A program made the position numbers and the translations under genes. Below, piece by piece: positions 46,811-62,863 of a stretch of DNA of 64,000 nt. The stretch spans positions 2,320-66,319 of the forward strand of contig JBAYHJ010000005.1 of the NCBI GenBank assembly GCA_041666225.1. The letters run 5' to 3'. The notes beneath the pieces are model-generated. The model saw nothing but the letters and a program-made list of their open reading frames with translations, was not told where the DNA came from and ran no database searches. Each line of letters opens with the position of its first letter. The first letter of the stretch is position 1. Source of the stretch: Minisyncoccota bacterium (GTDB lineage: Bacteria; Patescibacteriota; Minisyncoccia; Phycocordibacterales; UBA9973).

Positions 46811-46868
46811 ATTGCAATAACTCAATATTTTTGATATAGTCTATCTGTATTATTACGTATAACCATAT

Positions 46869-46941
46869 GCGTGTGTAGTTCAGTGGTAGAACGCTGTCCT
46901 GATAAGACAGAGGTCCTTGGTCCGATTCCAAATACCGTTGC
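46869..46941 (+). tRNA. tRNA-Ile(GAT)-like sequence: canonical acceptor-5', D-arm and anticodon arm, but T-arm/acceptor-3' do not fold (probable truncated tRNA / attachment-site remnant)
   Basis: GCGTGTG-TA-GTTC-AGTGGTA-GAAC-G-CTGTC-CTGATAA-GACAG then AGGTC CTTGG TCCGATT CCAAA TACCGTT; no CACACGC acceptor complement; immediately upstream of integrase. Confidence 0.45.
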
Positions 46942-47063
46942 GAACAAAGGCGTTTCTAAACATTAAAAGGGAGATAGGACACACTTCCGCAGAACAGTGT
47001 TCCGCGGCTCAGCTCAAAATTCGTTAAAAATTTAAAAAAACACTACATAAAATAGGAGTGTTT

Positions 47064-47957
47064 ATGGACATTAAAATGTTAGCAGAGAGGTTTTATAATC
47101 ACTCGTTACACATCCGTGGTTTCTCTAAGAATACGGTAAATAGATATAAAAGTATTATAGATCCGTATTGTGAATATTCTAATATATCAGAAATAGAACA
47201 GGTTTCAGAAAAAAACATAAGACAGATGTTTTTTTATGGTCGCACAGAGAGGAAGTGGTGCTCAGGAACTTTTATTTGCAACTACAAGGCACTTAAGGTG
47301 TTTTTTGACTGGTGTATCAAGGAAGGACATATCAAAAATAATCCTATGAAGTGTTTGGAGTTGCCCAAGCTAGAGAAACGATTACCACTAAAGTTAACAA
47401 AACAAGAGTCATCAAAATTATTGGAAGTAGTTTTTAATTATCCTTATGATTATGAATATTTAAGATATAGGAATTACGCAATTTTCTCACTTTTTTTATT
47501 TGCTGGACTTAGAAGGGCTGAGTTATTAAAATTGAAATTAACGAATATCGATATTGAGAATCAGACTATCTATATATCTCTAGGAAAGGGCAACAAGGAC
47601 AGGATTATTCCAATGAACTTTACTCTTACTGAAACCTTAAAAAGATATTTAGTGGAACGCAAAAGATTAAACAAAACATGCCCAGAGTTCTTTTGTTCTC
47701 TAAATCGTAACATGGGATATACAAATAATGGACTCAGGCGATTAGTAAAACAAATAAGAGAAGCATCTGGAATTAACTTCGCATGTCATAAACTTCGTCA
47801 TACTTTTGCTACGCTCCTTTTAGAAAATGGGTCAGATATTTATAGTATTTCTCGACTAATGGGCCATAGTGATATAAAGACGACTACAATCTATTTATAT
47901 GCCTCTGTAGAGCATTTAAGGGCACAGATGAGTAAACATCCACTAAACACAATATGA
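47064..47957 (+). CDS. int: Tyrosine recombinase / phage-type integrase (ATG 47064 preceded by aggag; track GTG at 47058)
   Basis: C-terminal catalytic HKLRHTFATLLLENGSDIYSISRLMGHSDIKTTTIYLY (H..R..H..Y), upstream R in LLFAGLRRAEL. Confidence 0.85.
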   Translation: MDIKMLAERFYNHSLHIRGFSKNTVNRYKSIIDPYCEYSNISEIEQVSEKNIRQMFFYGRTERKWCSGTFICNYKALKVFFDWCIKEGHIKNNPMKCLELPKLEKRLPLKLTKQESSKLLEVVFNYPYDYEYLRYRNYAIFSLFLFAGLRRAELLKLKLTNIDIENQTIYISLGKGNKDRIIPMNFTLTETLKRYLVERKRLNKTCPEFFCSLNRNMGYTNNGLRRLVKQIREASGINFACHKLRHTFATLLLENGSDIYSISRLMGHSDIKTTTIYLYASVEHLRAQMSKHPLNTI

Positions 47958-48117
47958 ATACGAAAATACCCCCTTTTACGTTAAGGAGGTATTCGTTCGA
48001 AGAAAACACAGGGGGGATAAGAGGGTAAATTTCTATTCATATGTCAGAATTTTTATATTTATATATAAAATATTTAATTATTGTATATAGTAGTTTAAAA
48101 TTACCTTCTTATCCATC

Positions 48118-50337
48118 TTATTCAGTTTCTTCTTTTCTGCCTTTAATCTTCACATTTCTCCAGCCCTGAATCTGTTTCTTGTCTATTGCTTTAGTTCCGT
48201 CAATGATATAACCACTATGATTAGGCAATTTTCTACCTAAAAATTTCTTATCAACAATTGGCAAATTATAGAATTTCGCGTATCGCGCGCACTCTTCGTA
48301 CATCGCATCTTTACTTACCCAAGCACTCGTTTCTTCTTCTAGGCAATCTTTAACAAAGTTAGCTACCATAGAGCCAGAAAGTAACATTTCTTTCTTTACT
48401 TCTTCTGGAGTTTTACCATAGCTAAAATCTTGCTTTTGTAAGATTTCACTTAATCCAAACAGTGATAAATTCAATAATCCAGATAATTCTTCTTTAGTTG
48501 TCATTTTATCTGTAAGGAATTTATCCACTCTTGTAATTTCCGCTAGGAACGGAACAATGATCCATCTGCTGAAATAGGCATCGTCATTGGTATCTTTTAC
48601 GTCTGGAATCTTATTACAAGCAAATGTTAATTTAGCGAAGTTCTGAAACTGAAATTGTTCTCCAAACTTCTTTTCACCGCTAATAATTCCACCACCAGTA
48701 GCTATCTTAAACAATCCATTGTCATTAATATCGCTGAAAGAAAGATCATCATATACATTTATATGTTTGTTATATAAGTGAGAAGATGCAAATTTGTCAG
48801 AGACTATCTTTTGTAGACTAATTCCTGAGACATTTTCTTTCCCTATAAATCTTTCGAACAATTTTATTAAGGTAGATTTTCCTGTATCTTTCTCTCCTAC
48901 AAAGATAATGGCTTTCTTAATGAAGTAATTTCTGTAGAGACAAAACCCGAACCATTCTAGAATTATTTTTTGATCCTCTGGCAAAATCTCATTCAGAAAG
49001 TTACTAATTACTGGACACATTGCATTCACATTGTAATTAACAGGAACCTTAGTGAAGAATAAGTATTCAGGACTATGTGGCATAAATTCTTTATTTTTAA
49101 TGTTAAATATTCCATTATTAAGATTAATGAAATTCTTATTAACATTAAAATCTTCTAAATCTGCCAAGGTTGAATCCTTAATCATTTCAATGATATTATT
49201 CTTGTTAGTAGTTGTCGTAAGCTCTTCTAATATTTCTTGAATTTCTGCCTTTATATTATTTAAGCCTAAAACGTAGATGCCATCTTTGTAGATGTAAATA
49301 TCGCGTATTCTTTCCCCGATGGTTTTAATGTGATATTTCTTAATGAGATATTTGGCAATTTCATATGATGTTTCTTTAGGGTGATTCAAGAAGTTACTCT
49401 TGAAATTTACATCTTCCGATATTTTTAGTACTAGATCTTTCTTCTTTTCCTGCTGGGATTGAATAGCAACCATAATTGTGTGTTCTCTATAATCCTTTCT
49501 TATCTGTGTTTTAACTCTTGCCCCAAGTGGTGAACTAAGCCATAGACGTTCCATTTGTTCTGCGTTGCAATCTGTCCAATAAGCTAGGTGCGAACATAAA
49601 GCTAAATCAGCCACAGAGTCATCGTTATTATGTGCAGTTGTATCACCGTTATACAGTAATTTAATTTTATCTCCTATTTTAGATGCGAACATTTTGGAAA
49701 GAATGATCTCATCGTCAATTGATGGAATAGCAACTGGAAATATGGCGGTTTGTTGCACTCCTTGCTTGCCCCATGGATAACCAATAATTGAGAGTAGTGC
49801 TATTGCTTCCTCTGGAGTAACTGTGCGGACAGGTAACGCTTCTTCAAGAGGGTTATTTGTCACAGTGAAATAACGACCTGATGTATAAGCTTCAAATGGG
49901 CCTTTCCTATTTGCTATAAGCTTAAGCGGTGCTGTAAGCGATAAATAAAGATGCAGTCCACTTTCAGACGGACTAATCTCTGTGTAAGTTCCTGCTTCCT
50001 TAATAAGCTTAAGAATATTCTCTCTTTCTTCATGCATGATTTCATTACCATCTAAACAATGATCTATATCAATTCCAAGAAGTAGTTGGTCTGGCGTAAA
50101 GACTATTCCAATACCTTGCGATACATTTACTACTTCTTCATACATGTTCCAAGTTGATGGGTTATCTGTTGATGCAGTTCTTCCATCTAAACCAATTGGC
50201 AACTTTGTAACTCGACCATCTTCTCCTGTTTCTTCATACCTCCAATTAACCCAGCACTTTTGTTCGCCAAAGGTTGATGCAAGTATGTTTTCATCTTCTT
50301 TTTTTTCTGTTTTTACTAATTCTTCTTCTATACTCAT
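48118..50337 (-). CDS. Bifunctional primase-polymerase (PrimPol N-domain) fused to D5/P4-alpha-like SF3 helicase
   Basis: N-terminal PrimPol motifs (GIGIVFTP...LGIDIDHC), Walker A FVGEKDTGKSTLIKLF, Walker B-like HINVYDD. Confidence 0.8.
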   Translation of the reverse strand: MSIEEELVKTEKKEDENILASTFGEQKCWVNWRYEETGEDGRVTKLPIGLDGRTASTDNPSTWNMYEEVVNVSQGIGIVFTPDQLLLGIDIDHCLDGNEIMHEERENILKLIKEAGTYTEISPSESGLHLYLSLTAPLKLIANRKGPFEAYTSGRYFTVTNNPLEEALPVRTVTPEEAIALLSIIGYPWGKQGVQQTAIFPVAIPSIDDEIILSKMFASKIGDKIKLLYNGDTTAHNNDDSVADLALCSHLAYWTDCNAEQMERLWLSSPLGARVKTQIRKDYREHTIMVAIQSQQEKKKDLVLKISEDVNFKSNFLNHPKETSYEIAKYLIKKYHIKTIGERIRDIYIYKDGIYVLGLNNIKAEIQEILEELTTTTNKNNIIEMIKDSTLADLEDFNVNKNFINLNNGIFNIKNKEFMPHSPEYLFFTKVPVNYNVNAMCPVISNFLNEILPEDQKIILEWFGFCLYRNYFIKKAIIFVGEKDTGKSTLIKLFERFIGKENVSGISLQKIVSDKFASSHLYNKHINVYDDLSFSDINDNGLFKIATGGGIISGEKKFGEQFQFQNFAKLTFACNKIPDVKDTNDDAYFSRWIIVPFLAEITRVDKFLTDKMTTKEELSGLLNLSLFGLSEILQKQDFSYGKTPEEVKKEMLLSGSMVANFVKDCLEEETSAWVSKDAMYEECARYAKFYNLPIVDKKFLGRKLPNHSGYIIDGTKAIDKKQIQGWRNVKIKGRKEETE

Positions 50338-50339
50338 AT

Positions 50340-50609
50340 TTATTCGGTCTTCGAAAAATTTCTAGTTACAAATTTTAAGAACATTTCTGATAACTTAAAT
50401 GCACCTTCGAGACATTTTTCATTATCCACAATACGATTTACCGACTTTTCAACATCTTTAGCTGAAATAAATTTTGAGGATAATACTAACGTCAATGCCA
50501 TCAGAAGATCCTCCTTTGAATACTTATCAGCAAAGTTCGTATATTTGTGTCCTATCATAATGTTTTCAACTCCTACTTTTGCCTTTTTAGGGCTATTTTT
50601 TTTACTCAT
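50340..50609 (-). CDS. Hypothetical small protein immediately upstream of the PrimPol gene
   Basis: 89-aa ORF; stop 2 nt before PrimPol start, same strand. Confidence 0.35.
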   Translation of the reverse strand: MSKKNSPKKAKVGVENIMIGHKYTNFADKYSKEDLLMALTLVLSSKFISAKDVEKSVNRIVDNEKCLEGAFKLSEMFLKFVTRNFSKTE

Positions 50610-50695
50610 ATTTTTTAATATATTATTTAATAATTGCAGGATGTTCCTTGCTTACTATTTCGTAAGCAAGGTTATCCCACATGGGGGGGCACTAT

Positions 50696-50869
50696 TTAGT
50701 TTTTACGATTACATTTCTCACAAAATGTAAGACTTCGAAGAATATCAAGAGATTCGAAAGCATTTTTCATAATCACTTGGCATACATCATCCATTGTCAC
50801 AACTTCTTCACAGAAGTTATCTATTTCTTCTTTGAGCACCTTGGGCTCTTTTGTTTTCTTTTTTAACAT
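50696..50869 (-). CDS. Possible 57-aa Cys-containing small protein (below the ORF-track length cut-off)
   Basis: Minus-strand ATG at 50869 to TAA at 50696: MLKKKTKEPKVLKEEIDNFCEEVVTMDDVCQVIMKNAFESLDILRSLTFCEKCNRKN. Confidence 0.25.
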   Translation of the reverse strand: MLKKKTKEPKVLKEEIDNFCEEVVTMDDVCQVIMKNAFESLDILRSLTFCEKCNRKN

Positions 50870-51042
50870 GTGTTTTTATAGTTAGGCTATTAATCTTCCT
50901 CTCGACTGAGGATTCCTTCTATTATTTCAAATCCTCTTTTCAGACTTTGATTTTTTTTGAATTAGTGGAAAACATAAAAAAAAGAGCCCTATTTTTAAGG
51001 ACTCTTTTTAAATTTCCACTAAAATTTCGGAAATTTCTTCCA

Positions 51043-51882
51043 CTAACTCCCACTCTTTTCTCTTATTTTCATATAAACACTTTGATTTCCATCAGTAAAT
51101 TCAAGTGATATACTCAACCCTTTTTTTGAAGTTTTGCGTTGTAATTCTTTTAATCTATCTTTTAATATTTCTTTTTTTCTAGGCACTGTTAGATAATGGT
51201 CATTCTTTAATTTACTTGTTTTAGGAGTTGTTTGATCAAAAACAAACTCAATTCTCTTTGGTACTTCGATTGGCAAAAGGCATTCATATAATTTACTTGC
51301 AACATTATCAATTGCACCTATCTCAACGCTTTTTGAACCAAAATTTAGTAGTCTTCCTCCGTTTGCAGTTTGTAAAAGAGTTTCATTATTATTATTATTA
51401 TTCATACCCGTTCTTTTTTCTGTATTTGAACTTTTGAGATGCTTAATGTCTGTTATTGGTGATTGAGCAGTATTACTACTTGTTACATCTTCAAGCATTT
51501 GTTTTAACTCAAGATCTCTTATTCCAGTGTTTGGTTTGTATTCATCTCCCAGCAATTCAGCTCTCTTTTGTTCTGCTTTAGACACTAAATACCGAAGATT
51601 GGTTTCTGCTTTATATAAAACTTTTTTATCTTTTTCTTCTCTATATGGAAGATAAATAATATCCAAGGGGATCAAATATCCCTTATCTTTAAAATTTAAA
51701 TTTCCAGCGGGTATTTTTAATTCTCCTAATAAATTAAGTAAAATATTATATTTTTGATTAAGTTCTTTGTATTCTCCTGGATACTTAATAATTATTTTTA
51801 CTATTTGTAAAATATCAAAAGCACACTGTGAGAAATTATGTAGTGTAGTAGCTTTTACTTCTGTTAGTTTTGTCCTTGGCAT
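51043..51882 (-). CDS. Hypothetical protein, 279 aa, first gene of the minus-strand PrimPol module
   Basis: Clean ORF; poly-Asn tract (NNNNNN); no motif. Confidence 0.4.
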   Translation of the reverse strand: MPRTKLTEVKATTLHNFSQCAFDILQIVKIIIKYPGEYKELNQKYNILLNLLGELKIPAGNLNFKDKGYLIPLDIIYLPYREEKDKKVLYKAETNLRYLVSKAEQKRAELLGDEYKPNTGIRDLELKQMLEDVTSSNTAQSPITDIKHLKSSNTEKRTGMNNNNNNETLLQTANGGRLLNFGSKSVEIGAIDNVASKLYECLLPIEVPKRIEFVFDQTTPKTSKLKNDHYLTVPRKKEILKDRLKELQRKTSKKGLSISLEFTDGNQSVYMKIREKSGS

Positions 51883-52043
51883 GGTTGGATTATATCAAAA
51901 ATATACTTTATAACCCAATATTAGGATTCCAATCCCTACTTATTAAGCATCTTCTAAAATTCAGTTTTAAGTGGTATACTTTTGACAGTTTATACTTATC
52001 AAGTGACTAGTTAAAATAACCTATAATATTACACAAATAACCC

Positions 52044-53141
52044 ATGTATTTAATTAATAAAGACAAGAATGACATTGAACAGCTTGAAGAAGTAACTTTT
52101 AAATCAGCAGGTTTTAAAGAACGACAACATCTCCAAGAATGGATAGCAAAGAATCCTTTATCACTAGGTGAGGATTTTCTAATTATTCAAAAAGAATTTG
52201 CTGGTTTTGATGATACAAATGAAAGACTTGATCTTCTGGCTTTAGATAAAAAAGGCAATTTAGTAGTTATTGAAAACAAGCTAGATGATACAGGTAGGAA
52301 TGTCGTATGGCAATCACTAAAGTATGCTTCATATTGTTCAAGCTTAACTAGTGAAGGTATTGAAGATATTTTTGATGAGTATTTAAAAAAGAATGGAATA
52401 AAAGAAAGTGCTAAACAGTTACTAGAAGACTTCTTTGATGATGAAGATTTTAAAGAGAAATTAAATACTGGAAATAGTCAAAGACTAATAATGGTTGCTC
52501 ACGAATTTAGAAAAGAAGTAACCTCAACTGTTTTATGGCTCCTTAACTTTGGATTGAGAGTTCAATGTTTTAAAGTTACACCTTACAAGCTAGGAGAAAA
52601 GTTTCTTTTAGATTTTTCTCAGATTATTCCTATTAAAGAAGCTGAAGATTATATTATAAAAGTTGCATCAAAGAATAGAGAAGAAATTGGTAATCAAGAA
52701 GAACTAGAAAATAGATATTCAGTTAGATATGATTTTTGGACAGAATTCTTAAAAGAAGTAAATAAAAAGAATAGTTTATGTGCAAACTTAAGTCCTAGCA
52801 AAGATGCTTGGATTGGCATAGGTTCTGGAGTAAGTGGAATAAATATAAACTTAGTTGTTACTAGGTCCTACGCTAGAGTAGAAATATATATAAATAAAGG
52901 AGTAGCTCAAAATAAAGAAGTGTTTGATTATTTCTTTAAACAGAAGGAGCAGATAGAAAAAGACTTTGGAGCACCCCTAGATTGGGCAAGAATGGATGAT
53001 AAGGTTACTTGTAGAATTAAGTGGCAATTAGATAGTGTTAGCATCTTTGAAGAAGCAGATCATAAGAAAATGAATGACTTCTTGATTGACGGACTAGAAA
53101 GAATGAAGAAAGCATTTACTGAACCAATAAAAAACTTATAA
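52044..53141 (+). CDS. PD-(D/E)XK nuclease-fold protein, probably DUF4268-like, preceding hsdR
   Basis: RLDLLALDKKGNLVVIENKLD (D...ExK), C-terminal domain of the kind often found beside type I R-M genes. Confidence 0.45.
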   Translation: MYLINKDKNDIEQLEEVTFKSAGFKERQHLQEWIAKNPLSLGEDFLIIQKEFAGFDDTNERLDLLALDKKGNLVVIENKLDDTGRNVVWQSLKYASYCSSLTSEGIEDIFDEYLKKNGIKESAKQLLEDFFDDEDFKEKLNTGNSQRLIMVAHEFRKEVTSTVLWLLNFGLRVQCFKVTPYKLGEKFLLDFSQIIPIKEAEDYIIKVASKNREEIGNQEELENRYSVRYDFWTEFLKEVNKKNSLCANLSPSKDAWIGIGSGVSGININLVVTRSYARVEIYINKGVAQNKEVFDYFFKQKEQIEKDFGAPLDWARMDDKVTCRIKWQLDSVSIFEEADHKKMNDFLIDGLERMKKAFTEPIKNL

Positions 53142-53157
53142 TAATTAAAATAAATTT

Positions 53158-56157
53158 ATGGCTTTCAATGAAAATACAAGAGTAAAGATTCCAGCAATAT
53201 TACATCTATCCAAATTAGGATATGATTATATTTCTCTTTCAAATGCAAAGATAGATGAGAATACAAATATCTTCACTGATATATTTAGAGAGAGTCTTTT
53301 AAAAATAAATAAAGATGTTGAAGAACATGATATAAAGAAAACTTTTGATGAAGTTTCTCTTACTCTTGATAATGATGATCTCGGACAAGAATTTTATAAT
53401 AAGTTGATAGCAACATCTGGAATAAAACTTATTGATTTTAAAGATTTTAGTAATAACACCTTTAATGTAGTCACTGAACTTACCTACAAGAATGGAGATG
53501 ATGAATTCCGTCCAGACATTACGCTTCTTATTAACGGTATGCCTCTTGTATTTATAGAAGTTAAAAAACCTAATAATCAAGAAGGAATACTCGCAGAAAG
53601 AAATAGAATAAATGTAAGATTTAAGAATAAGAAGTTTAAAAAGTTTATAAACATTTCTCAGATCTTGGTATTTTCCAATAACATGGAATACGACTCTGAA
53701 TCAATCGTTCCTATCCAAGGAGCATTTTATGGGACACCATCATATCAAAATGCGAACTTTAATTGTTTTAGAGAAGAAGAAAAAATTGATTTAGCTAGGA
53801 TTTTAAAAGAAGAAGATGAAGATATTGAGAATATTGTATTGAAAGATAACAATTTATTGACAATAAAACATTCCCAAGAATTTATTACTAATAAAGATAA
53901 CAATACTCCCACAAATCGGATTTTAACTTCGTTATTTAGCAAAGAAAGAATAGCATTGCTTTTGAGATACAGTATTGCTTATGTTCAAGAAAAGAACGGA
54001 CTTGAAAAACACATAATGCGTTATCCTCAATTGTTTGCAACAAAGGCAATTGAAAATAAACTAGAAAATGGAATAACTAAAGGTATCATTTGGCACACAC
54101 AAGGTAGTGGCAAAACAGCACTTGCTTATTATAATGTAAATTATTTAACTGACTATTATCAGAAGAAAGAAATAATCCCAAAATTCTATTTCATTGTAGA
54201 TAGAATTGATCTAATGATTCAAGCTAAGAACGAGTTTGTAAATCGTGGTCTTACCGTGCATATAGTTAATTCTAAGGAAGAGCTTACGAAAGACTTTAAT
54301 TTATTAACAGCAATTCATAACCTCTCAGGCAAAAGAGAAATTACTGTTGTTAATATTCAAAAGTTTAAGGATGATACGGATGTATTAAAAACAATTGATT
54401 ATAATATAAATACACAGAGAGTTTATTTCTTAGACGAAGTACATAGAAGTTACAATCCTACAGGAAGTTTCTTGGCTAACCTTTTTAATTCAGATCGCAA
54501 AGCTATCATGATAGGGTTAACAGGAACTCCACTTATAACAAAAGATAGATTCTCCAGAGAAATCTTTGGAGACTACATTCATAAATATTATTACAATTCG
54601 TCTATTGCAGATGGATATACTTTAAAATTAATTAGAGAAGGTATAGAAAATAATTATAAAATTCAACTCGAAAAAACCTTAAAAGAGGTTGAAGTGATGA
54701 GTGGAGATGTAGAAAAACGAGTTATATATTCACATGAAAAATTTGTAGAGCCGATGCTTGAATATATAGTTGAAGATTTTATTAAAAGTAGAATAAGATT
54801 TGCTGACAATAATATTGGTGGAATGGTTGTCTGTGATAGTTCTGATCAAGCTAAGAAGATGTCTGAAATTTTCGAAAGAAAATATAAAGACACTGATAAA
54901 AATTTAACATCAGCTCTTATTCTCCATGATGTTGGAGACAAGGAAGAAAGAAAAAAAGAAATTGAAGATTTTAAAGCTGGTAAAATAGACCTCTTGTTTG
55001 TATACAATATGTTACTTACAGGATTTGATGCTAAACGACTTAAAAAACTTTATATAGGTAGAATAATCAAAGACCATAACTTACTCCAAACACTTACTAG
55101 AGTAAACAGACCATATAAAGAATTTAGATATGGATATGTTGTAGATTTTGCAGATATTCGTAAGGAATTTGATTCTACAAATAAGGCATATTTTGATGAA
55201 CTGCAACTAGAACTTGGAGATGAGATGAAGACATACTCTGGATTGTTTGCTTCCCAAGAAGAAATTGAGCAAGATATACAAGATATTAAAGAAATGTTGT
55301 ATCACTATGACTTAAATAATGCTGAAACTTTCTCTCAACAAATCAATCAAATAGAAGATCGTAGTGTTATATTAGAGCTAAAAAAGGCCTTAGAAAAAGC
55401 AAGAAATTTATATAATATCATTCGCTTACAAGGAAACTATGAATTATTAGAAAAAATTGATTTTAAAAAACTCAATCAGCTTTATAGTGAAACTTCTCAT
55501 CGTTTAGATTTACTTAATCTTAAGGATTCTCTTGCAAATAGTACTGATACAACAAATCTTTTAAATATTGCACTTGAAGACATAGTTTTCATGTTTCGTA
55601 AGGTATCAGAAGAAGAACTTATAATTGCAGATCAACTTAAAAACATGCTTCGAAAAACTCGTGAAGCACTTGGTGGAAATTTTGATCCAAAGGACCCACA
55701 CTTTGTTTCTTTATATGATGAATTAAAAAGATTATTTAATAAAAAGAATCTAGATGAAATTACACAAGAAGAGATGACTCAAAATATTGGTTCATTACAG
55801 CAAATCTACGACAAAGTAACAGAACTAAACCGCAGGAATAATTTATTAAAAGCAAAATATGAGAATGATGCGAAGTATGCTCGAATTCATAAGCGAATAT
55901 TAGAAAAAGGAAACATTACTACACGAGAGAGTGAAATAGGAGAAACTCTTTTAGATATTAAGAAACAAGCTGATGAGAAGGTATTACTTAACGCTAAATT
56001 ATTAAACAATGAAAGTTACTTTGATGGATTAATGATGCAAATGGTAATTGGAGGTTTTGAGAAAACAAATATTAAACTTGATTCTGAGTCAGCTAAATAT
56101 ATAAATAAATGCGTCGTAAGTGAGTACATTAATGAATTTCAAGGCACAATAGCATAA
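53158..56157 (+). CDS. hsdR: Type I restriction enzyme R subunit
   Basis: N-terminal HsdR nuclease domain, helicase motif I IWHTQGSGKTALAYY, DEAH box FLDEVHRS, motif VI QTLTRVNR. Confidence 0.9.
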   Translation: MAFNENTRVKIPAILHLSKLGYDYISLSNAKIDENTNIFTDIFRESLLKINKDVEEHDIKKTFDEVSLTLDNDDLGQEFYNKLIATSGIKLIDFKDFSNNTFNVVTELTYKNGDDEFRPDITLLINGMPLVFIEVKKPNNQEGILAERNRINVRFKNKKFKKFINISQILVFSNNMEYDSESIVPIQGAFYGTPSYQNANFNCFREEEKIDLARILKEEDEDIENIVLKDNNLLTIKHSQEFITNKDNNTPTNRILTSLFSKERIALLLRYSIAYVQEKNGLEKHIMRYPQLFATKAIENKLENGITKGIIWHTQGSGKTALAYYNVNYLTDYYQKKEIIPKFYFIVDRIDLMIQAKNEFVNRGLTVHIVNSKEELTKDFNLLTAIHNLSGKREITVVNIQKFKDDTDVLKTIDYNINTQRVYFLDEVHRSYNPTGSFLANLFNSDRKAIMIGLTGTPLITKDRFSREIFGDYIHKYYYNSSIADGYTLKLIREGIENNYKIQLEKTLKEVEVMSGDVEKRVIYSHEKFVEPMLEYIVEDFIKSRIRFADNNIGGMVVCDSSDQAKKMSEIFERKYKDTDKNLTSALILHDVGDKEERKKEIEDFKAGKIDLLFVYNMLLTGFDAKRLKKLYIGRIIKDHNLLQTLTRVNRPYKEFRYGYVVDFADIRKEFDSTNKAYFDELQLELGDEMKTYSGLFASQEEIEQDIQDIKEMLYHYDLNNAETFSQQINQIEDRSVILELKKALEKARNLYNIIRLQGNYELLEKIDFKKLNQLYSETSHRLDLLNLKDSLANSTDTTNLLNIALEDIVFMFRKVSEEELIIADQLKNMLRKTREALGGNFDPKDPHFVSLYDELKRLFNKKNLDEITQEEMTQNIGSLQQIYDKVTELNRRNNLLKAKYENDAKYARIHKRILEKGNITTRESEIGETLLDIKKQADEKVLLNAKLLNNESYFDGLMMQMVIGGFEKTNIKLDSESAKYINKCVVSEYINEFQGTIA

Positions 56158-56160
56158 TAT

Positions 56161-57783
56161 ATGACACAAGATTTTACAATTCAAACAAAACAATTAATTG
56201 ATAACCTTAAGGGTATTTGTTCCTCTTATGGTTTAGGAAATGATGGTAATGAATTTAAAATCATTACTCAAGTGTTCTTGTATAAGTTTATGAACGATAA
56301 GTTTGGGTATGAAGTAAAACAGATTGATAATAGATTGCAAAAGGCTGAAAACTGGGAACAAGAAATATCTAAATATACTAACAAGGAGTATGATATGTTA
56401 CTTCTAAAAATGAATCCAGATAGTGCTAAACTTAAAAGAGAGCATTTTTTATCTAGTCTTCATAACAGACAAAACGATGAGGAGTTTGCTAAAATATTTG
56501 ATGATACATTGCTTGATATTTCTATTTTCAATAAAGATATCTTCTCTGTTAAGACTGAGACTGGAGCTAAAATAAAACTTTTTGATGAATTAAGTAATTT
56601 TATTACAGATAGTTCAAAGAGAGATGATTTTGCAAGAGCACTTATTAATCAACTTATTAATTTCAGTTTTGAGAAAACATTTAATCAAAAGTTTGATTTC
56701 TTTTCTACAATATTTGAATATCTTATTAAAGATTACAATAAAGATGGTGGAGGAAAATATGCTGAGTATTACACTCCTCATGTAGTATCAAAAATAATGG
56801 CTTCTATTTTAGTAGATAGTCCTGTAAAAAATGTAACTTGTTATGATCCATCTGCTGGTTCTGGAACTCTCCTTATGAATTTAGCACATGCTATCGGTGT
56901 GGATCGTTGTACTATTTACTCGCAAGATATTTCACAGAAGTCATCTAGTTTACTTCGTCTTAATCTAATTTTAAATAATCTAGTACATTCTATTCAAAAT
57001 ATTATTCAAGGTGATACTTTACTTGCTCCATATCATAAAACTGGTGATAAACTAATGACCTTTGATTATATAGTCTCGAACCCCCCATTCAAACTAGATT
57101 TTAGTAAAGAAAGAGATGATATCGAGTCTAAACAGAGTTATGGTCGTTTTTTTGCAGGAGTTCCTAAGGTTACACCTAAAAATCCAGACAAGATGGCAAT
57201 TTATTTGCTTTTTATTCAGCATATTATGTTTTCTTTAGCTTCTAATGGGAAAGCCGCTATTGTTGTTCCTACTGGATTTATCACTGCACAAAGTGGTATT
57301 GAAATGAAAATTAGAGAGAAATTAATTAATAAAAAAATGTTACGAGGAGTAGTTTCTATGCCGAGTAATATATTTGCGACTACTGGTACAAATGTATCTA
57401 TTTTATTTATTGATAAAACTAATACAGATGGTGATGTAATTCTCATGGATGCTTCTAGTTTAGGAACGAGTGTAAAAGAGGGTAAAAATAAAAAAACATT
57501 ACTTTCCCCAGAAGAAGAACAATTGATTATTAGTACTTTTAATAAACGTAAAGTAGAAGAAGATTTTTCTGTGGTTGTTTCGTATGACCAGATAAAAGAG
57601 AAGGGCTATTCTTTTAGTGCTGGGCAATATTTTGAGGTAAAAATTGAGTATATTAATATAACTCAAAAAGAATTTGGAACAAAAATGAGCAGATATAAAT
57701 TAAACCTTGCAGAATATTTCAAACAATCTCATGAGTTAGAACAAGAAATTAAAAAACAGTTGGAATTGTTAAAATATGAATAA
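56161..57783 (+). CDS. hsdM: Type I R-M N6-adenine DNA methyltransferase subunit
   Basis: HsdM N-terminal domain, AdoMet motif DPSAGSGTLL, catalytic NPPF (VSNPPFKLDF). Confidence 0.9.
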   Translation: MTQDFTIQTKQLIDNLKGICSSYGLGNDGNEFKIITQVFLYKFMNDKFGYEVKQIDNRLQKAENWEQEISKYTNKEYDMLLLKMNPDSAKLKREHFLSSLHNRQNDEEFAKIFDDTLLDISIFNKDIFSVKTETGAKIKLFDELSNFITDSSKRDDFARALINQLINFSFEKTFNQKFDFFSTIFEYLIKDYNKDGGGKYAEYYTPHVVSKIMASILVDSPVKNVTCYDPSAGSGTLLMNLAHAIGVDRCTIYSQDISQKSSSLLRLNLILNNLVHSIQNIIQGDTLLAPYHKTGDKLMTFDYIVSNPPFKLDFSKERDDIESKQSYGRFFAGVPKVTPKNPDKMAIYLLFIQHIMFSLASNGKAAIVVPTGFITAQSGIEMKIREKLINKKMLRGVVSMPSNIFATTGTNVSILFIDKTNTDGDVILMDASSLGTSVKEGKNKKTLLSPEEEQLIISTFNKRKVEEDFSVVVSYDQIKEKGYSFSAGQYFEVKIEYINITQKEFGTKMSRYKLNLAEYFKQSHELEQEIKKQLELLKYE

Positions 57784-59035
57784 GAAATATAAATTAAAAG
57801 AATTATGTGAAATTACTTCAAGTAAGCGAATATTTGCACATGAATACGTAGAAAAAGGTATATCATTTTTTCGAAGTAAAGAAATTATTGAATTAGCTAA
57901 TGAACAAAAAATAGATGAGCCATTATTCATTAGTGAAGAAAGATATAATGAGATAAAGAAAAAATTTAACATTCCTAAAAATGGAGATATTTTACTTTCT
58001 GCAATAGGAGCTAATCTCGGAATCCCTTATTGGGTTAATTTGGATTTTGAATTTTATTTTAAAGATGGAAATGTTATTTGGTTTAGAAACTTTTCATCAA
58101 AATTAGACAGTGAGTATTTGTTTTGGTGGATGAATACAAATTATTTTTTTAAACAATTTACAGATAAAGCAATTGGAGCTGCACAAAAAGCTCTCACTAT
58201 TGATTCATTAAATGAATATTTAGTTGAAGTTCCAAGTTTAAAAGAGCAAAGAGATGCTATAAAAATTTTTAGAGCAATATCAAAAAAAATTATAGTAAAC
58301 AACAAAATCAACGCTGAACTAGAAGTAATGGCAAAAACCTTATATGATTACTGGTTTATACAATTTGATTTTCCAAATAAAAATAATAAACCTTATAAAA
58401 ATAGTGGGGGTAAAATGATTTACAGTAATGAATTAAAAAAAGAAATCCCTGAAGGATGGGAAGTTGATAGAATAAATAAAAAGATTAAAATCGAATCAGG
58501 CTTTCCTTTTAATTCTGATGATTATTGCGAAAATGGAAAATATCAAATTATAACAATTAAGAACGTACAAGATGGATATTTAGATACTTCAACAGTAGAT
58601 AAAATTGACCTTATTCCTGATAATATATCAGATTTTTGTGTATTGGAAATTGGTGATGTCTTAATGTCTCTTACAGGCAATGTTGGAAGGATGTGTTTTG
58701 TGGATAAAGAAAATCTACTTCTAAACCAAAGAGTTGGTAAGTTGCTTGGAGAAAAAGAATTTATAATTTATACTTATTTATTTTTTAAGAGACCAGAAAA
58801 TCAAAAGAGGTTAGAAAAAATAGCTGGTGGAAGCTCACAGTCAAATTTAAGCCCAATAAATGCAGTAAAAGATTTTTTCATTATACCTTCACAAAATATA
58901 TTAAATGATTTTTCAAAAATTATCATCCCTATTTTTGAACAAATAATAAGAAATAAAAAAGAAAACAGAGAACTCTCAGAACAACGAGATTGGCTCCTTC
59001 CAATGCTAATGAACGGACAAGTAACCGTTAAATAA
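57776..59035 (+). CDS. hsdS: Type I R-M specificity subunit with two target-recognition domains
   Basis: Duplicated TRD architecture with conserved central and C-terminal coiled-coil repeats; overlaps hsdM by 8 nt. Confidence 0.85.
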   Translation: MNKKYKLKELCEITSSKRIFAHEYVEKGISFFRSKEIIELANEQKIDEPLFISEERYNEIKKKFNIPKNGDILLSAIGANLGIPYWVNLDFEFYFKDGNVIWFRNFSSKLDSEYLFWWMNTNYFFKQFTDKAIGAAQKALTIDSLNEYLVEVPSLKEQRDAIKIFRAISKKIIVNNKINAELEVMAKTLYDYWFIQFDFPNKNNKPYKNSGGKMIYSNELKKEIPEGWEVDRINKKIKIESGFPFNSDDYCENGKYQIITIKNVQDGYLDTSTVDKIDLIPDNISDFCVLEIGDVLMSLTGNVGRMCFVDKENLLLNQRVGKLLGEKEFIIYTYLFFKRPENQKRLEKIAGGSSQSNLSPINAVKDFFIIPSQNILNDFSKIIIPIFEQIIRNKKENRELSEQRDWLLPMLMNGQVTVK

Positions 59036-59040
59036 CAAAT

Positions 59041-59724
59041 ATGAACCCACTTAAAACAAATGGCTTAATAATTCAAAATTTTCCACAAAAGGAGTATGAG
59101 GCCATTCATTCAATTTTAAGTAGTAAGTATGCAGAAAGAAAAGAATATGAGCATTTTGCAGGAGCTTGGAATGCTGTGGCGTACAGATATAAAGCTGCTG
59201 TTGATCACGGACAAGATTTCATTGAATTATTCAAATTACATGGAACAGCACCACAACCAGAAAAAAGATATCTACAAGAAAAAGCTCTTTTTGATCACTT
59301 CAGCTCTTGCTTTTCTGTTTTTGAATCAATATGCTATGGATTTTTTGCTATAGGGTCTATTATTAAACCAGAATATTTTTCTATTATTGATCCAGTAGAT
59401 CAACGAAAAATATCCCCAGAGACAACTAAGAGAATCTTTCAAGGTGCATTTCCAGATGAGCAAATTACTAAAACGTTAATAGAGTTAACTTCTGATCCAG
59501 AATTTGAAAATATTAGGAATACTAGAAATATTCTTACTCACAGAACAGCACCAGGAAGAAAGATTTATCTTAATATAGGAAAGGATGAATCACCGCCAAC
59601 TGAATGGAAATTGAATAATAAACCCTTAGATGAATTTATAGTTAAATCAAACGAAGAAAATATGAAAAGACTTTTAAATAATTTATTAAATACAGGTGAA
59701 GAATTTTGTAAATCATATCTATAA
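59041..59724 (+). CDS. Hypothetical protein with HEPN-like Rx4H motif, directly downstream of hsdS
   Basis: All-alpha composition; NIRNTRNILTHR contains R-x4-H; 6 nt after the hsdS stop. Confidence 0.4.
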   Translation: MNPLKTNGLIIQNFPQKEYEAIHSILSSKYAERKEYEHFAGAWNAVAYRYKAAVDHGQDFIELFKLHGTAPQPEKRYLQEKALFDHFSSCFSVFESICYGFFAIGSIIKPEYFSIIDPVDQRKISPETTKRIFQGAFPDEQITKTLIELTSDPEFENIRNTRNILTHRTAPGRKIYLNIGKDESPPTEWKLNNKPLDEFIVKSNEENMKRLLNNLLNTGEEFCKSYL

Positions 59725-59728
59725 TTAT

Positions 59729-60691
59729 ATGGCACATAAAAATATTATAAAAATACCAAATAAGATAAAAGAGCAATTAGAAACATTTAGTCAGGATGAT
59801 GTTGTTGTAGCTTGTGTAAAATATATTCCTAATGAAGAAATTAATAAATATAAACACTTAAACATACAATACATTAATGGAGAACTTATTGTTCCTCCTT
59901 CAGATACCCCAGATCCTAATGCTGGAAAATTCTCTCGTGCTAATTTAGAGGGATTTGAAAAGAAAAGAACAGATTTACCAAAAATTTCAAAAGATTTTAG
60001 TTTTGATGCTCCCAATTGGGGTGGGTATGGGACTCATGAGGTTTCTCACACACGAGAAGTATTTCAAAAAGATTTTTATCCACCAAAAGAAGTTGAACTA
60101 AAAATTGAACAAGTAGAAAAAAGAGAGAATGGTTTTAAAATTAAATTTTCCATAGAACAAGTAATCAATCGTCGTACTCCAAATTTTGAGAAAGAACTGC
60201 TTTATAACCTAAATTTATTACAAGAAAATGTTGGGATGATAGATGTATTTCCAAGTATTGCTACCCTAGCAGATTATGCAAAGACCGTTTATATAGATTG
60301 GGAAATATTACCACCTGGAACTGTTGATGAAATCATAGAAGCTTTATTAAAAAATCAAAGAACAGGAAGTATTACACCTGATCAGATAAAAATAACGAGA
60401 GAAAGAATAGCTGTTATGGCAAAATTGAAACCTACTGTATATATAAAAGGTATGACTGGTTTTTTAAGGTATTTTGGTGCAAAGTTTGGAGAGGATTTTG
60501 TTGTTTTTGAAAATATAAAATATGGAAATGCTTTATATATAATGTATGATTCTTGGGAGAAGTTAAGTAAGAAGAGTAGAACAGAGTTATTAAGTGGACC
60601 AAGAGAAGGATTTGATCGTATAGAACATAAAAATGGATGGGAAAATAATTTAGCAAAATTTGTTAGAGAATATAGGTATAAAAATAAATAG
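59729..60691 (+). CDS. Hypothetical protein, 321 aa (start at ATG 59729)
   Basis: Clean ORF starting 5 nt after the preceding stop; no motif. Confidence 0.4.
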   Translation: MAHKNIIKIPNKIKEQLETFSQDDVVVACVKYIPNEEINKYKHLNIQYINGELIVPPSDTPDPNAGKFSRANLEGFEKKRTDLPKISKDFSFDAPNWGGYGTHEVSHTREVFQKDFYPPKEVELKIEQVEKRENGFKIKFSIEQVINRRTPNFEKELLYNLNLLQENVGMIDVFPSIATLADYAKTVYIDWEILPPGTVDEIIEALLKNQRTGSITPDQIKITRERIAVMAKLKPTVYIKGMTGFLRYFGAKFGEDFVVFENIKYGNALYIMYDSWEKLSKKSRTELLSGPREGFDRIEHKNGWENNLAKFVREYRYKNK

Positions 60692-60698
60692 TAATTAG

Positions 60699-61448: not shown

Positions 61449-61452
61449 AATT

Positions 61453-61683: not shown

Positions 61684-61735
61684 TATCACTAAATTAATGA
61701 TTTATTAAAATGTATTTAAGTGATACAATACCAAT

Positions 61736-62839: not shown

Positions 62840-62863
62840 TAAAAAGTTTAAGTAAAAAAGAAC

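What the first reader, a model, noticed from the sequence alone, without database searches (positions are those of the whole stretch)
46869..47057. Half-degenerate tRNA-Ile(GAT) plus GAACA-G-TGTTC palindrome directly upstream of an integrase: island junction
Positions 1-48 form a textbook tRNA-Ile(GAT) 5' part. The T-loop (TCCGATT) and the acceptor-3' region cannot pair with the 5' acceptor. Fifty nt downstream lies the palindrome ccgcagaacaGtgttccgcgg (46987..47007); the int gene then starts at 47064. This is the classic tRNA / att / int arrangement, but here the tRNA appears not to be reconstituted. Either the intact 3' half sits at the far end of the island beyond the window, or the organism has another tRNA-Ile copy.
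Basis: seen in the sequence. Interest (0 to 1): 0.6.

Follow-up and report, generated by a model that had tools for sequence, protein, structure and literature searches.

The report
Defence island inserted in tRNA-Ile gene
This is the left edge of a mobile defence-gene island that inserted into an isoleucine tRNA gene of an uncultured Patescibacteria bacterium and left the tRNA with a broken end. This is a classic arrangement, made by a little-studied, very widespread family of small integrases.

Summary
Window 46869-46931 (63 nt) is identical to an intact tRNA-Ile(GAU) allele found in other metagenome contigs. The 'odd' T-loop TCCGATT is normal for this lineage. Only the last T-stem base and the 3' acceptor strand (46932-46940) are wrong, so no acceptor stem is predicted.

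The gene at 47064 encodes a catalytically complete, Xer-like 297-aa tyrosine recombinase. Its relatives (57-95% identity; Patescibacteria, Bacteroidota, Myxococcota and others) nearly always sit beside a tRNA gene. Two complete small elements are bounded by direct repeats of a tRNA 3' half that start exactly at the anticodon loop.

The window therefore holds the attL junction of an island of at least 19.6 kb. It carries int, a P4-type primase, PDC-S11, a type I R-M system and Lamassu. Its far end lies beyond the contig.

The palindrome is this lineage's version of a conserved ~35-nt dyad motif (GACC-N17-GGTC) upstream of int. The motif mimics a tRNA anticodon arm and is probably an integrase-binding site, not the crossover site.

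A sister branch leaves an orphan host tRNA-Thr 5' half and carries its own complete tRNA-Thr, which is often intron-containing.

Verdict: an ordinary kind of feature, in an interesting family.

The parts
46812..46840 (+). Sigma-70-like promoter match (TTGCAA-17-TATAGT, with an extended TG) 28 nt upstream of the tRNA. This is host DNA.
   Evidence: Consensus scan only; not tested further.
46869..46898 (+). Host-derived 5' part of tRNA-Ile(GAU): acceptor 5' strand GCGTGTG, D-arm, anticodon stem 5' strand.
   Evidence: Identical to the intact allele in L172/L181/L191. The stretch from position 5 to the end of the anticodon loop is retained unchanged in L024 and L168, where the 3' parts differ.
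46899..46905 (+). Anticodon loop CTGATAA (anticodon GAT at 46901-46903). Inferred overlap/crossover region of attL.
   Evidence: Inferred by analogy. The direct repeats of complete family elements begin exactly at the anticodon loop (L062, L060). L024 breaks right after this loop. At least 19 loci carry an orphan tRNA-Thr 5' half that ends at the loop. Not shown for the window itself.
46906..46940 (+). tRNA-Ile 3' half, probably supplied by the element. It is correct through 46931. The segment 46932-46940 (A-TACCGTT-G) replaces G-CACACGC-A, so the acceptor stem is lost.
46946..46970 (+). Weak copy of the conserved 'block' (family consensus aaGGnTATTTTGGAAAA) that precedes the motif.
   Evidence: Aligned with L024 and L168. 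23 loci match the block consensus with at most 4 mismatches. Function unknown.
46976..47011 (+). The window's copy of the family dyad motif (consensus GACC-N3-T...A-N3-GGTC; here GGACAC...GTGTTCC). It mimics a tRNA anticodon arm and is a candidate integrase-binding site.
   Evidence: nhmmer profile hit at 46976-47011. One hit with E<0.01 in each of 37 other related loci plus two in L060, all on the + strand upstream of int. Dyad statistics.
46987..47007 (.).
   Evidence: Shared with L168, not with L024.
47039..47062 (+). Hairpin AACACT-N12-AGTGTT whose 3' arm overlaps the ribosome-binding site GGAG (47055-47058), directly before the ATG.
   Evidence: Read from the sequence. The same AACACTGCA...GGAGTGTTTT hairpin precedes int in many loci of other phyla. 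The role in translation control or termination is inferred.
47064..47960 (+). int: a 297-aa Xer-like tyrosine recombinase with the full catalytic set (R, K, HxxR, H, Y).
   Evidence: Pfam. NCBIfam hits to XerA, XerD and XerC are all below their cut-offs. PDB alignments. Homologues.
48118..50337 (-). P4-family primase/helicase (prim-pol HBD + D5_N + DUF5906). Together with int it forms the core module of the element.
   Evidence: A 76%-identical copy lies next to int in L024.
50340..64000 (.). Island cargo, continuing to the contig end at window coordinate 66590. Small ORFs; PDC-S11 (52044-53141); type I R-M hsdR/M/S (53158-59035); two unknown ORFs; a Cas4-like PD-(D/E)XK nuclease (60699-61448); Lamassu LmuA (61736-62839) and LmuB (62864-64585).
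   Evidence: No similarity to the DNA downstream of tRNA-Ile in relatives.

Best explanation
Window 46869-47063 is the left junction (attL) of an integrated genomic island of at least 19.6 kb in the host's tRNA-Ile(GAU) gene.

The host is an uncultured Patescibacteria bacterium whose native gene order is prfB ... RRM-protein gene, tRNA-Ile. The island is driven by a small Xer-like tyrosine recombinase (47064-47960). It has a P4-type primase as its second core gene and carries anti-phage systems: PDC-S11, a type I R-M system and Lamassu.

In this integrase family, recombination takes place in the anticodon loop of a tRNA gene. The anticodon arm, together with the flanking GAGC/GAAC (D-stem) and GGTC (variable loop), forms a natural dyad site. 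The element normally brings its own copy of the tRNA 3' half, so a chimeric tRNA is rebuilt at attL.

In the window that 3' half is correct up to the T-stem but has lost a usable 3' acceptor strand. This happened either by divergence of the element's copy or by a ~14-18 nt deletion relative to the 92% relative L168. The junction tRNA is therefore most likely a pseudogene, and the cell must get tRNA-Ile(GAU) from another gene.

The palindrome is part of a ~35-nt dyad motif that every family member keeps just upstream of int, or upstream of an element-borne tRNA that precedes int. The motif looks like a tRNA anticodon arm with a different, shorter centre. It is most likely bound by the integrase as an accessory or autoregulatory site.

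Shown: the tRNA identity and the defect; the family's tRNA linkage; direct repeats in two complete elements; empty sites in relatives; the cargo.
Inferred: the crossover position in this window; non-function of the tRNA; the role of the motif.
For: tRNA identity and defect:
- 63 nt are identical to intact alleles.
- Rfam scores fall from 71.1 bits (canonical) to 59.4 (L168), 44.3 (window) and no hit (L024).
- The acceptor stem is predicted absent.
- All 109 intact relatives have 7/7 acceptor pairs and discriminator A.

Insertion:
- At least 16 related contigs have the RRM gene followed by an intact tRNA-Ile with no int. None of their downstream DNA matches window 48-66.6 kb.

Family:
- More than 2000 homologues.
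- The 80 best genome loci come from several phyla at 54-87% identity, including two copies in one Myxococcota chromosome.
- In nearly all 80, a tRNA gene or tRNA fragment lies within ~500 nt upstream of int.

Crossover:
- L062 has a 43-nt direct repeat and L060 a 47-nt direct repeat. Each equals a tRNA 3' half starting at the anticodon loop, and they bound elements of 1.9 and 3.4 kb.
- L024 breaks just after the loop.

L168:
- The tRNA is full length, but its 3' acceptor strand CAGACAC belongs to a different tRNA-Ile allele (L125 type) than its 5' strand GAGTGTG. This is what is expected if the element supplies the 3' half.

Core module:
- int plus primase are shared with L024.

Cargo:
-.

Motif:
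- One hit with E<0.01 in each of 38 sources (37 related loci and the window) and two in L060, always upstream of int in the same orientation.
- GACC/GGTC and T/A dyad positions are conserved in 33-41 of 42 sequences; the outer arm positions pair in about half.
Against: - The right end (attR) and its repeat are not on the contig, so the island is not delimited and excision cannot be shown.
- The 63-nt identity with the host-type allele includes the clade-specific T-stem CTTGG. It fits a crossover near the 3' end just as well, unless the element came from a very close relative.
- The organism needs tRNA-Ile(GAU), and no second copy is seen in 66.6 kb.
- There is no composition shift at the junction.
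- The motif's function is untested. RNAalifold finds no consensus fold, and the covariation of the outer arms is only modest.
Confidence: 0.75

Rival explanations
1. The junction tRNA is still a working tRNA-Ile(GAU) with an unusual acceptor stem (six pairs, one bulged U, two G-U). The island has reconstituted the gene well enough.
For: - The Rfam score of 44.3 is above the gathering score, with a full-length alignment.
- There is a promoter-like site upstream.
- 63 of 72 positions are canonical.
- No other tRNA-Ile is present in 66.6 kb, and the tRNA is essential.
Against: - ARAGORN rejects it.
- Acceptor pair probability is <=0.02, and the cloverleaf energy is -11.5 kcal/mol against a non-cloverleaf minimum of -16.9.
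- The discriminator is not A, whereas 109 of 109 intact genes have A and 7/7 pairs.
- The close relative L024 has lost the whole 3' half at the same locus, so this lineage tolerates loss of this copy.
Confidence: 0.12
2. The crossover is at the T-loop/3' end of the tRNA. Host DNA would then run to about 46931 and only the last ~9 nt would come from the element.
For: The identity with the host-type allele runs through the clade-specific T-stem CTTGG and the T-loop, up to 46931. T-loop and 3'-end crossovers are common among tRNA-targeting integrases (my own knowledge: Williams 2002, Nucleic Acids Res 30:866).
Against: - In complete elements of the same family the repeats start at the anticodon loop.
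- L024 (int 87% identical, same locus) diverges immediately after the anticodon loop.
- At least 19 loci carry orphan 5' halves ending at the loop.
- In L168 the T-stem (GAAGG) differs from that of the one available allele with the same acceptor (L136, GATGG). This is weak evidence, resting on a single comparison.
Confidence: 0.3
3. The recombinase is the cell's own Xer chromosome-dimer resolvase and the palindrome is its dif site, placed next to the gene as in XerS/difSL or XerH/difH. In that case there is no island junction.
For: - The best profile and structure matches are XerA, XerD and XerC.
- There is no arm-binding domain.
- The protein is very strongly conserved at ~60% identity over more than 2000 proteins.
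- Xer-related recombinases of candidate phyla have been grouped with cellular Xer proteins (PMC8138268).
- A dyad site lies directly upstream of the gene.
Against: - All Xer models score below their cut-offs.
- Family members are bounded by tRNA-half direct repeats.
- They occur twice in one chromosome and in unrelated phyla.
- They sit next to conjugation-type genes in Bacteroidota (a predicted ATPase and an ArdC-like protein, both recognised by eye from the translations and not searched against any library) and next to variable R-M genes in Patescibacteria.
- Close relatives have the tRNA-Ile locus without the gene.
- The palindrome itself is not conserved in L024.
Confidence: 0.05
4. The motif/palindrome acts as RNA: a structured leader of the int (or tRNA-Thr-int) transcript that controls expression or processing, rather than a DNA site.
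For: - It always lies on the int strand upstream of the first gene of the module.
- The outer arm positions show some compensatory changes (AACGACC/GGTCGTT, ATAGACC/GGTCTAT, GCCGACC/GGTCGGC; L024 GGCTA/TGGCC). Only 2-5 of 500 shuffles reach the observed values.
Against: - RNAalifold predicts no consensus structure.
- The outer positions pair in only ~45-60% of sequences, and a 17-nt 'loop' with conserved bases is atypical.
- The same right arm, AAACAGGTC, is found fused to host tRNA 5' halves at recombination junctions. This points to a DNA site recognised by the recombinase.
- No Rfam family matches.
Confidence: 0.15

Closest known systems
Integrative islands and prophages that use a tRNA anticodon stem-loop as attB and duplicate the tRNA 3' part (the anticodon-loop sublocation class of Williams 2002; cited from my own knowledge, the paper is not in the library)
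   Same: int lies next to a tRNA gene. The direct repeat equals the tRNA from the anticodon loop to the 3' end in complete family members. Foreign cargo lies downstream, and relatives have empty sites.
   Different: The integrase is a short Xer-like 'simple' recombinase without an arm-binding domain. In the window the rebuilt tRNA lacks an acceptor stem. A conserved tRNA-arm-like dyad motif sits inside the element next to int.
tRNA-dependent lysogeny of mycobacteriophages (Guerrero-Bustamante & Hatfull 2024, PMC10865867)
   Same: Integration into a tRNA gene that does not rebuild a functional tRNA. In the sister branch of this family (at least 19 loci) an orphan host tRNA-Thr 5' half lies upstream of a complete tRNA-Thr that sits next to int and appears to be element-borne.
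   Different: These are non-phage islands in other phyla with a different integrase type. In the window no replacement tRNA-Ile is found within the 19.6 kb available. About half of the replacement tRNA-Thr genes contain a group I intron.
P4-like satellites and primase-integrase defence islands
   Same: An integrase at a tRNA gene plus a P4-family primase/helicase (TIGR01613, 170 bits against a cut-off of 108.7), followed by a string of defence systems.
   Different: No capsid-hijacking or cos functions were recognised. The integrase is not of the P4/SXT type. The host is a Patescibacteria bacterium.
Single-recombinase Xer/dif systems (XerA, XerS/difSL, XerH/difH)
   Same: Protein size, domain layout and nearest structures (4a8e, 5hxy, 1a0p). 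A dyad site lies next to the gene.
   Different: Scores are below all Xer cut-offs. The family is bounded by tRNA repeats, is multi-copy, and is absent from the same locus in relatives.

Membership tests
tRNA-targeting integrative genomic island (attL junction) | Tyrosine integrase gene directly beside a tRNA gene, reading away from it | tested here: met
   tRNA at 46869-46940 and int at 47064-47960, on the same strand.
tRNA-targeting integrative genomic island (attL junction) | Direct repeat of part of the tRNA at the two ends of the element | tested here: inconclusive
   No repeat up to the contig end at window coordinate 66590. The feature is met in family members L062 (43 nt) and L060 (47 nt).
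tRNA-targeting integrative genomic island (attL junction) | Related genomes have the same tRNA locus without the element | tested here: met
   At least 16 contigs have the RRM gene followed by an intact tRNA-Ile and no int.
tRNA-targeting integrative genomic island (attL junction) | Accessory or foreign cargo between the ends | tested here: met
   P4-type primase, PDC-S11, type I R-M, Cas4-like nuclease, Lamassu. There is no match to relatives' flanks.
Functional bacterial tRNA-Ile(GAU) | Seven-pair acceptor stem and discriminator A73 | tested here: not met
   At best six pairs with a bulge and two G-U pairs. Pair probability <=0.02. The discriminator is T or G, whereas 109 of 109 intact relatives have 7/7 pairs and A.
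Functional bacterial tRNA-Ile(GAU) | D-arm, anticodon arm with GAU, and T-arm typical of the lineage | tested here: met
   Identical to the L172/L181/L191 allele for 63 nt. The T-loop TCCGATT is shared with 30 intact genes. One T-stem pair is broken (C49-A65).
tRNA-dependent (non-restoring) integration with a compensating element tRNA | Integration leaves no functional tRNA at the junction | tested here: inconclusive
   Predicted non-functional in the window and clearly so in L024. There is no expression data.
tRNA-dependent (non-restoring) integration with a compensating element tRNA | [quoted passage not shown] | tested here: not met
   No tRNA occurs in window 47000-64000 or the contig tail, although the island is incomplete. 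The feature is met for tRNA-Thr in the sister branch.
Xer/dif chromosome dimer resolution | Protein passes the XerC, XerD, XerA or XerS equivalog models | tested here: not met
   XerA 188 bits against a cut-off of 220; XerD 182 against 329.6; XerC 175.8 against 335; XerS 92 against 267.
Xer/dif chromosome dimer resolution | Single chromosomal copy at a fixed locus, not bounded by repeats | tested here: not met
   Two copies occur in one Myxococcota chromosome (L061, L093). Some elements are bounded by repeats. The gene is absent from the tRNA-Ile locus of relatives.
Integron (IntI with attI) | Integron-integrase signature (the extra domain; TIGR02249 or PRK15417 above cut-off) | tested here: not met
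   115.7 bits against a cut-off of 265, and 63 against 435. No cassette array was seen.
P4-like phage satellite | Integrase plus P4-family primase | tested here: met
   TIGR01613 at 170 bits against a cut-off of 108.7. The primase is also next to int in L024.
P4-like phage satellite | Helper-exploitation genes (capsid size redirection, psu/sid/delta-like) and a packaging site | tested here: inconclusive
   The small ORFs have no PHROG, Pfam or NCBIfam match. Absence cannot be concluded from an incomplete island.

The most novel reading that the evidence does not exclude
This Xer-like recombinase family may be the 'Cand' group that has been filed with cellular Xer proteins (family membership was not tested here). 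The proposal is that it is in fact the integrase of a cross-phylum family of mobile elements with three properties:
- They use the universal dyad of a tRNA anticodon arm (D-stem GAGC ... variable-loop GGTC) as attB.
- They keep a tRNA-arm mimic next to int as a second integrase site.
- They come in two styles: 'restoring' (they carry a tRNA 3' half, as in the window) and 'replacing' (they carry a whole tRNA-Thr that is nearly identical across phyla and often has a group I intron, while an orphan host tRNA-Thr 5' half lies upstream).

The window would be a restoring element caught in decay. The family would be a main route by which defence genes enter the tiny genomes of Patescibacteria, and possibly move between them and other phyla.
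Probability: 0.35. Interest if true: 0.7.

Novelty: new variant of a known kind. Interest (0 to 1): 0.45.

Why it matters
Taken alone, the window shows a textbook island junction with a damaged tRNA.

The value lies in the family behind it. Mobile elements of Patescibacteria are hardly described, and their Xer-like recombinases have been taken for housekeeping enzymes. Here the same small integrase is found at 54-87% identity in the 80 best genome loci, from Patescibacteria, Bacteroidota, Myxococcota, Chlamydiota and Ignavibacteria, and in nearly all of them it lies at a tRNA gene. Repeats that start at the anticodon loop define its site. A branch of the family leaves an orphan host tRNA-Thr 5' half and carries its own complete tRNA-Thr gene.

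This gives three things:
- a concrete, testable model for how defence systems are delivered to reduced genomes;
- a simple sequence signature (tRNA, block, dyad motif, int) for annotating such islands;
- a candidate compact recombinase whose target is a conserved tRNA feature.

Tried and rejected
1. My first genome-wide pattern returned nothing because I wrote six Ns instead of five between CTGATAA and AGGTC. That zero is my error and says nothing. The corrected, shorter pattern found at least 120 contigs.

2. I first suspected that int was the cell's own Xer and the palindrome its dif site, because of the many ~60% homologues named Patescibacteria. I rejected this after seeing the cross-phylum spread, the duplicates, the repeat-bounded elements and the empty sites.

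3. I considered that the long conserved RNA upstream of int in ~21 loci was tmRNA or a new RNA. It is a tRNA-Thr(GGT) gene split by a group I intron. The evidence is a weak Rfam Intron_gpI match at the P7 region, plus exon sequences read directly in L044.

4. I tested the motif as a conserved hairpin. RNAalifold gives no structure. An inner CACC/GGTG stem is not supported. Only the GACC/GGTC dyad and partial outer pairing hold.

5. Searches for a second copy of the motif, of the C' arm TAAACAGGTCTAC or of any tRNA-Ile fragment in the window plus the contig tail found none.

6. Viral contigs hold only distant relatives of int (<=34% over most of the protein), so no excised attP form was found.

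7. Exact-protein look-ups of int and the RRM protein yielded no further contig with readable DNA.

8. The composition profile shows no GC or skew step at the junction.
Full report
**What is in the sequence**

The window is part of ENA metagenome contig ERZ27249449:k141_1670229 (69,112 nt; window position = contig position - 2522).

The Rfam tRNA model matches 46869-46939 on the + strand over its full length. The score is 44.3 bits against a gathering score of 29. ARAGORN does not call a tRNA there.

The cloverleaf reads:
- acceptor 5' strand GCGTGTG
- D-arm GTTC/GAAC
- anticodon arm CTGTC-CTGATAA-GACAG (anticodon GAT at 46901-46903)
- variable loop AGGTC
- T-arm CTTGG-TCCGATT-CCAAA
- then TACCGTT-G.

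The palindrome CCGCAGAACA-G-TGTTCCGCGG is at 46987-47007, with 9 of 10 arm positions complementary. GC-rich palindromes of this quality occur at six places in the window, against 0.13 expected in shuffles.

An ORF with Phage_integrase and SAM-like N-terminal domains starts at the ATG at 47064.

**The tRNA compared with its intact relatives**

My first genome-wide pattern search returned nothing because I mis-typed the spacing. That result is void.

A corrected pattern (D-arm plus CTGATAA) found at least 120 metagenome contigs. Of these, 113 hold the full-length region, and 109 are intact tRNA-Ile(GAU) genes with 7/7 acceptor pairs and discriminator A. Thirty of them have exactly the T-loop TCCGATT.

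Three contigs (L172, L181, L191) carry the allele GCGTGTG...CTTGG-TCCGATT-CCAAG-CACACGC-A. This allele is identical to the window from 46869 to 46931 (63 nt). The window then has A-TACCGTT-G.

Rfam can pair this strand only by bulging U4 and using two G-U pairs. In a partition-function fold, the acceptor pairs have probability <=0.02, against ~1.0 for the canonical allele. The cloverleaf energy (-11.5 kcal/mol) is worse than a non-cloverleaf minimum (-16.9).

Rfam scores fall in a series: 71.1 bits (canonical), 59.4 (L168), 44.3 (window), no hit (L024).

**Is it an insertion?**

Upstream of the tRNA lie housekeeping genes: L25, a transglycosylase, L31, prfB and an RRM RNA-binding protein.

In at least 16 related contigs the RRM gene is followed by an intact tRNA-Ile in the same orientation. 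In five others the tRNA is convergent with the RRM gene. Apart from L168 (described below), none of these contigs has the integrase, and none of their DNA beyond the tRNA matches anything in window 48-66.6 kb.

Downstream of the tRNA the window holds:
- int
- a P4-family primase/helicase on the opposite strand
- three small unknown ORFs
- PDC-S11
- a type I R-M system
- two unknown ORFs
- a Cas4-like nuclease
- Lamassu LmuA/LmuB.

There is no tRNA, no repeat of any part of the tRNA-Ile and no second copy of the motif up to the contig end. The island is therefore at least 19.6 kb long and its right end is not available.

**The integrase family**

The protein has the full catalytic set (R in GLRRAEL, K in GKGNKDR, HKLR, GHS, Y in IYLY). 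It aligns best with XerA (4a8e, 5hxy) and XerD (1a0p), but it scores below every Xer and integron cut-off in NCBIfam.

It has more than 2000 homologues at E<=1e-20, mostly 60-67% identical and ~298 aa long. Eighty genome loci were fetched. They come from Patescibacteria of many classes and also from:
- Niastella populi
- Chitinophaga
- Mucilaginibacter
- Saprospiraceae
- Ignavibacteria
- a Simkania MAG
- Terriglobales
- a complete Myxococcota chromosome that has two copies with near-identical flanks.

This spread, the variable downstream genes (R-M systems in Patescibacteria), and the neighbours in Bacteroidota all speak for a mobile element rather than a cellular Xer. The Bacteroidota neighbours are a second integrase, a predicted conjugation-type ATPase and an ArdC-like protein. 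I recognised the last two by eye from their translations and did not search them against any library.

**What lies upstream of int in the family**

Three things recur.

(i) A ~35-nt motif with consensus nnnGACCaCcTCnnnnnnnrAAACAGGTCgnnGGcTc. An nhmmer profile finds one hit at E<0.01 in each of 37 related loci and in the window, and two in L060. All are on the int strand and upstream of int. A weaker conserved block (aaGGnTATTTTGGAAAA) lies ~12 nt before it.

(ii) A tRNA gene or tRNA fragment.

(iii) In many loci, a hairpin AACACTGCA...GGAGTGTTTT that overlaps the ribosome-binding site of int.

The arrangements fall into classes:
- Class C: tRNA-Lys or tRNA-Ala, then block, motif, int. The window, with tRNA-Ile, has this layout.
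- Classes A and B (about 43 loci): block, motif, a complete tRNA-Thr (mostly GGT), hairpin, int.
- In 21 of the A/B loci the tRNA-Thr is interrupted after GGT by a group I intron. This is seen directly in Niastella locus L044.
- In at least 19 of the A/B loci an orphan tRNA-Thr 5' half lies ~75-100 nt upstream of the motif. It ends precisely at the anticodon loop and is fused to TAAACAGGTC(TAC), which is the same sequence as the right arm of the motif.
- The complete tRNA-Thr next to int has the same acceptor (GCCGTTG/CAACGGC) in 18 loci from Myxococcota, Bacteroidota, Chlamydiota and Patescibacteria. The orphan halves are diverse. The complete gene therefore travels with the element.

**Where the family recombines**

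Two loci contain whole small elements.
- In L062 the sequence CTTTTAAGGAGACGGTCGTAGGTTCGAATCCTACTGGGGGCAC (43 nt: tRNA-Lys from the first base of the anticodon loop to the 3' end) occurs within the intact tRNA upstream of int and again 1.9 kb downstream.
- In L060 a 47-nt repeat of tRNA-Ala, also starting at the anticodon loop, bounds a 3.4-kb element.

Other loci show the reciprocal junctions: tRNA 5' halves ending at the loop (L056, L063, L076, L098) and 3' halves beginning at the loop (L039, L051, L053, L073, L092).

So the crossover lies in the anticodon loop, and the 'restoring' elements bring a tRNA 3' half.

**Applying this to the window**

Two close relatives sit at the same tRNA.
- L168 (int 92% identical) has a full-length tRNA-Ile. 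Its 3' acceptor strand CAGACAC belongs to another allele (as in L125), while its 5' strand is GAGTGTG. This gives two mismatches, which is the signature of a 3' half brought in by the element.
- L024 (int 87% identical; same RRM gene upstream; same primase downstream) keeps the 5' part up to CTGATAA and then diverges completely.

The window is intermediate. The 3' half is present, but the acceptor strand is gone. Relative to L168, the window has a 14-column gap at exactly this place, so a small deletion is as likely as divergence.

Because the 63-nt identity includes the clade-specific T-stem, a crossover near the 3' end cannot be excluded for the window. I give that alternative about 0.3.

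Either way, the three relatives show three different states of decay at the same junction. This suggests that the junction tRNA is not under selection, and that tRNA-Ile(GAU) is supplied from elsewhere. That copy has not been found.

**The palindrome and the motif**

The palindrome lies inside the window's copy of the motif (nhmmer hit at 46976-47011). L168 shares it. In L024 the sequence is CGCAGAAGAGTGGCCCTCGG, which is not a palindrome. The palindromic form itself is therefore not the conserved property.

What is conserved is a dyad. GACC and GGTC lie 17 nt apart and are kept in 33-38 of 42 sequences. A T/A pair two bases from a 7-nt centre is kept in 41 of 42. The three outer positions are complementary in about half of the sequences, slightly more than in shuffles. 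RNAalifold finds no consensus fold.

The layout (13 + 7 + 13) is that of a simple tyrosine-recombinase site. It also resembles the tRNA region GAGC-N6-[loop]-N6-GGTC that the family uses as attB. The motif's arms match tRNA-Lys at 9 of 14 and 11 of 15 positions (read).

Its centre differs from the neighbouring anticodon loop, so it should not recombine with the tRNA. I infer that it is an integrase-binding site with an accessory or autoregulatory role. This is not tested.

**Comparison with known systems**

- The arrangement is the classical tRNA/att/int island of the anticodon-loop type (Williams 2002, cited from my own knowledge).
- The branch that carries a whole tRNA-Thr, with an orphan host 5' half upstream, parallels tRNA-dependent lysogeny of mycobacteriophages (PMC10865867).
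- The int-primase-defence layout recalls P4-like satellites.
- The protein resembles Xer recombinases. Xer-related proteins of candidate phyla have been listed with cellular Xer proteins (PMC8138268). Whether this family is that 'Cand' group was not tested.

**Verdict**

The T-loop claim and the role given to the palindrome are wrong. For the window itself the feature is an ordinary island junction with a decayed tRNA. The family-level picture is moderately novel and worth a dedicated study.

Noticed in passing
L026, L032, L034, L041, L042, L044 (about 3530-3965), L045, L047 and 13 more loci, within 420 nt upstream of int: The tRNA-Thr(GGT) gene next to int is split after the anticodon by a ~215-nt group I intron. 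This occurs in Patescibacteria, Niastella, Simkania and Ignavibacteria loci. Rfam gives only a weak Intron_gpI match at the P7 region.
   Followed up: partly
L031:5450-5567 (+), L043:7470-7588 (-), L047:2157-2278 (+): LOOT RNA (RF03000, 78-84 bits) lies 38 nt to 3.5 kb from the integrase homologue in 3 of 16 loci scanned. None is present in the window at the gathering threshold.
   Followed up: no
L037, L054, L065, L069, L074 (within 100-300 nt upstream of the intact tRNA-Lys); also L029 and L030: Tandem remnants of the first 12 nt of a tRNA (....TAGCT) are fused to GTTTTGGTAG(G/A). The remnant is repeated up to three times before the intact tRNA-Lys. It looks like the scar of another element family that recombines in the D-loop.
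   Followed up: no
L062:5761-5800 and L060:7230-7260; L035, L048, L057, L077, L096 at +920..+1040 from the int start: An inverted copy of the same tRNA, or of its 3' half, follows attR or the stop codon of int. For example, a tRNA-Lys lies on the minus strand 20-30 nt after int in five loci. This may result from inversion or from head-to-head elements.
   Followed up: no
PDB 9i5v chain 14: A 401-residue chain deposited as 'Ribosome-associated translation inhibitor RaiA' aligns over residues 24-295 with this recombinase (E=3e-26). It therefore contains a Xer-like domain.
   Followed up: no
L147 (RRM orientation, about 90 nt beyond the intact tRNA-Ile): A second, orphan tRNA-Ile 5' half ending inside the anticodon loop lies next to an intact tRNA-Ile. 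It is another scar of integration at this gene.
   Followed up: no
window 39421-40166: An IS200-like Y1 transposase ORF (39471-40145) is flanked by 33-nt inverted repeats (39421-39453 and 40134-40166, 88% complementary) that contain repeated ATTGGGGTCAG units.
   Followed up: no
window 28083-28120 and 31631-31668: The perfect 21-nt palindrome GTTGGAAGTCCGACTTCCAAC occurs twice, 3.5 kb apart, within a 38-nt inverted repeat.
   Followed up: no
window 38442-38530 and 44763-44851: An 89-nt direct repeat (75% identity) lies inside the 255-aa minus-strand ORF at 44543-45310 and in a second region 6.3 kb upstream. This is probably a pair of paralogous genes of unknown function between prfB and the RRM gene.
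   Followed up: no
window 43344-43418: Two GC-rich hairpins (TCCCCTCCTTACCAAGGAGGGGA and CCCTCCCCTTGTTAAGGGGAGGG) lie between the L31 gene and the start of prfB.
   Followed up: no
L128, L130, L147, L180, L181 versus the window: In five related contigs the tRNA-Ile is convergent with the RRM gene, not co-oriented as in the window and at least 16 other contigs. This group includes L181, whose RRM protein is 96% identical to the window's. The tRNA locus has therefore been inverted in some lineages.
   Followed up: partly
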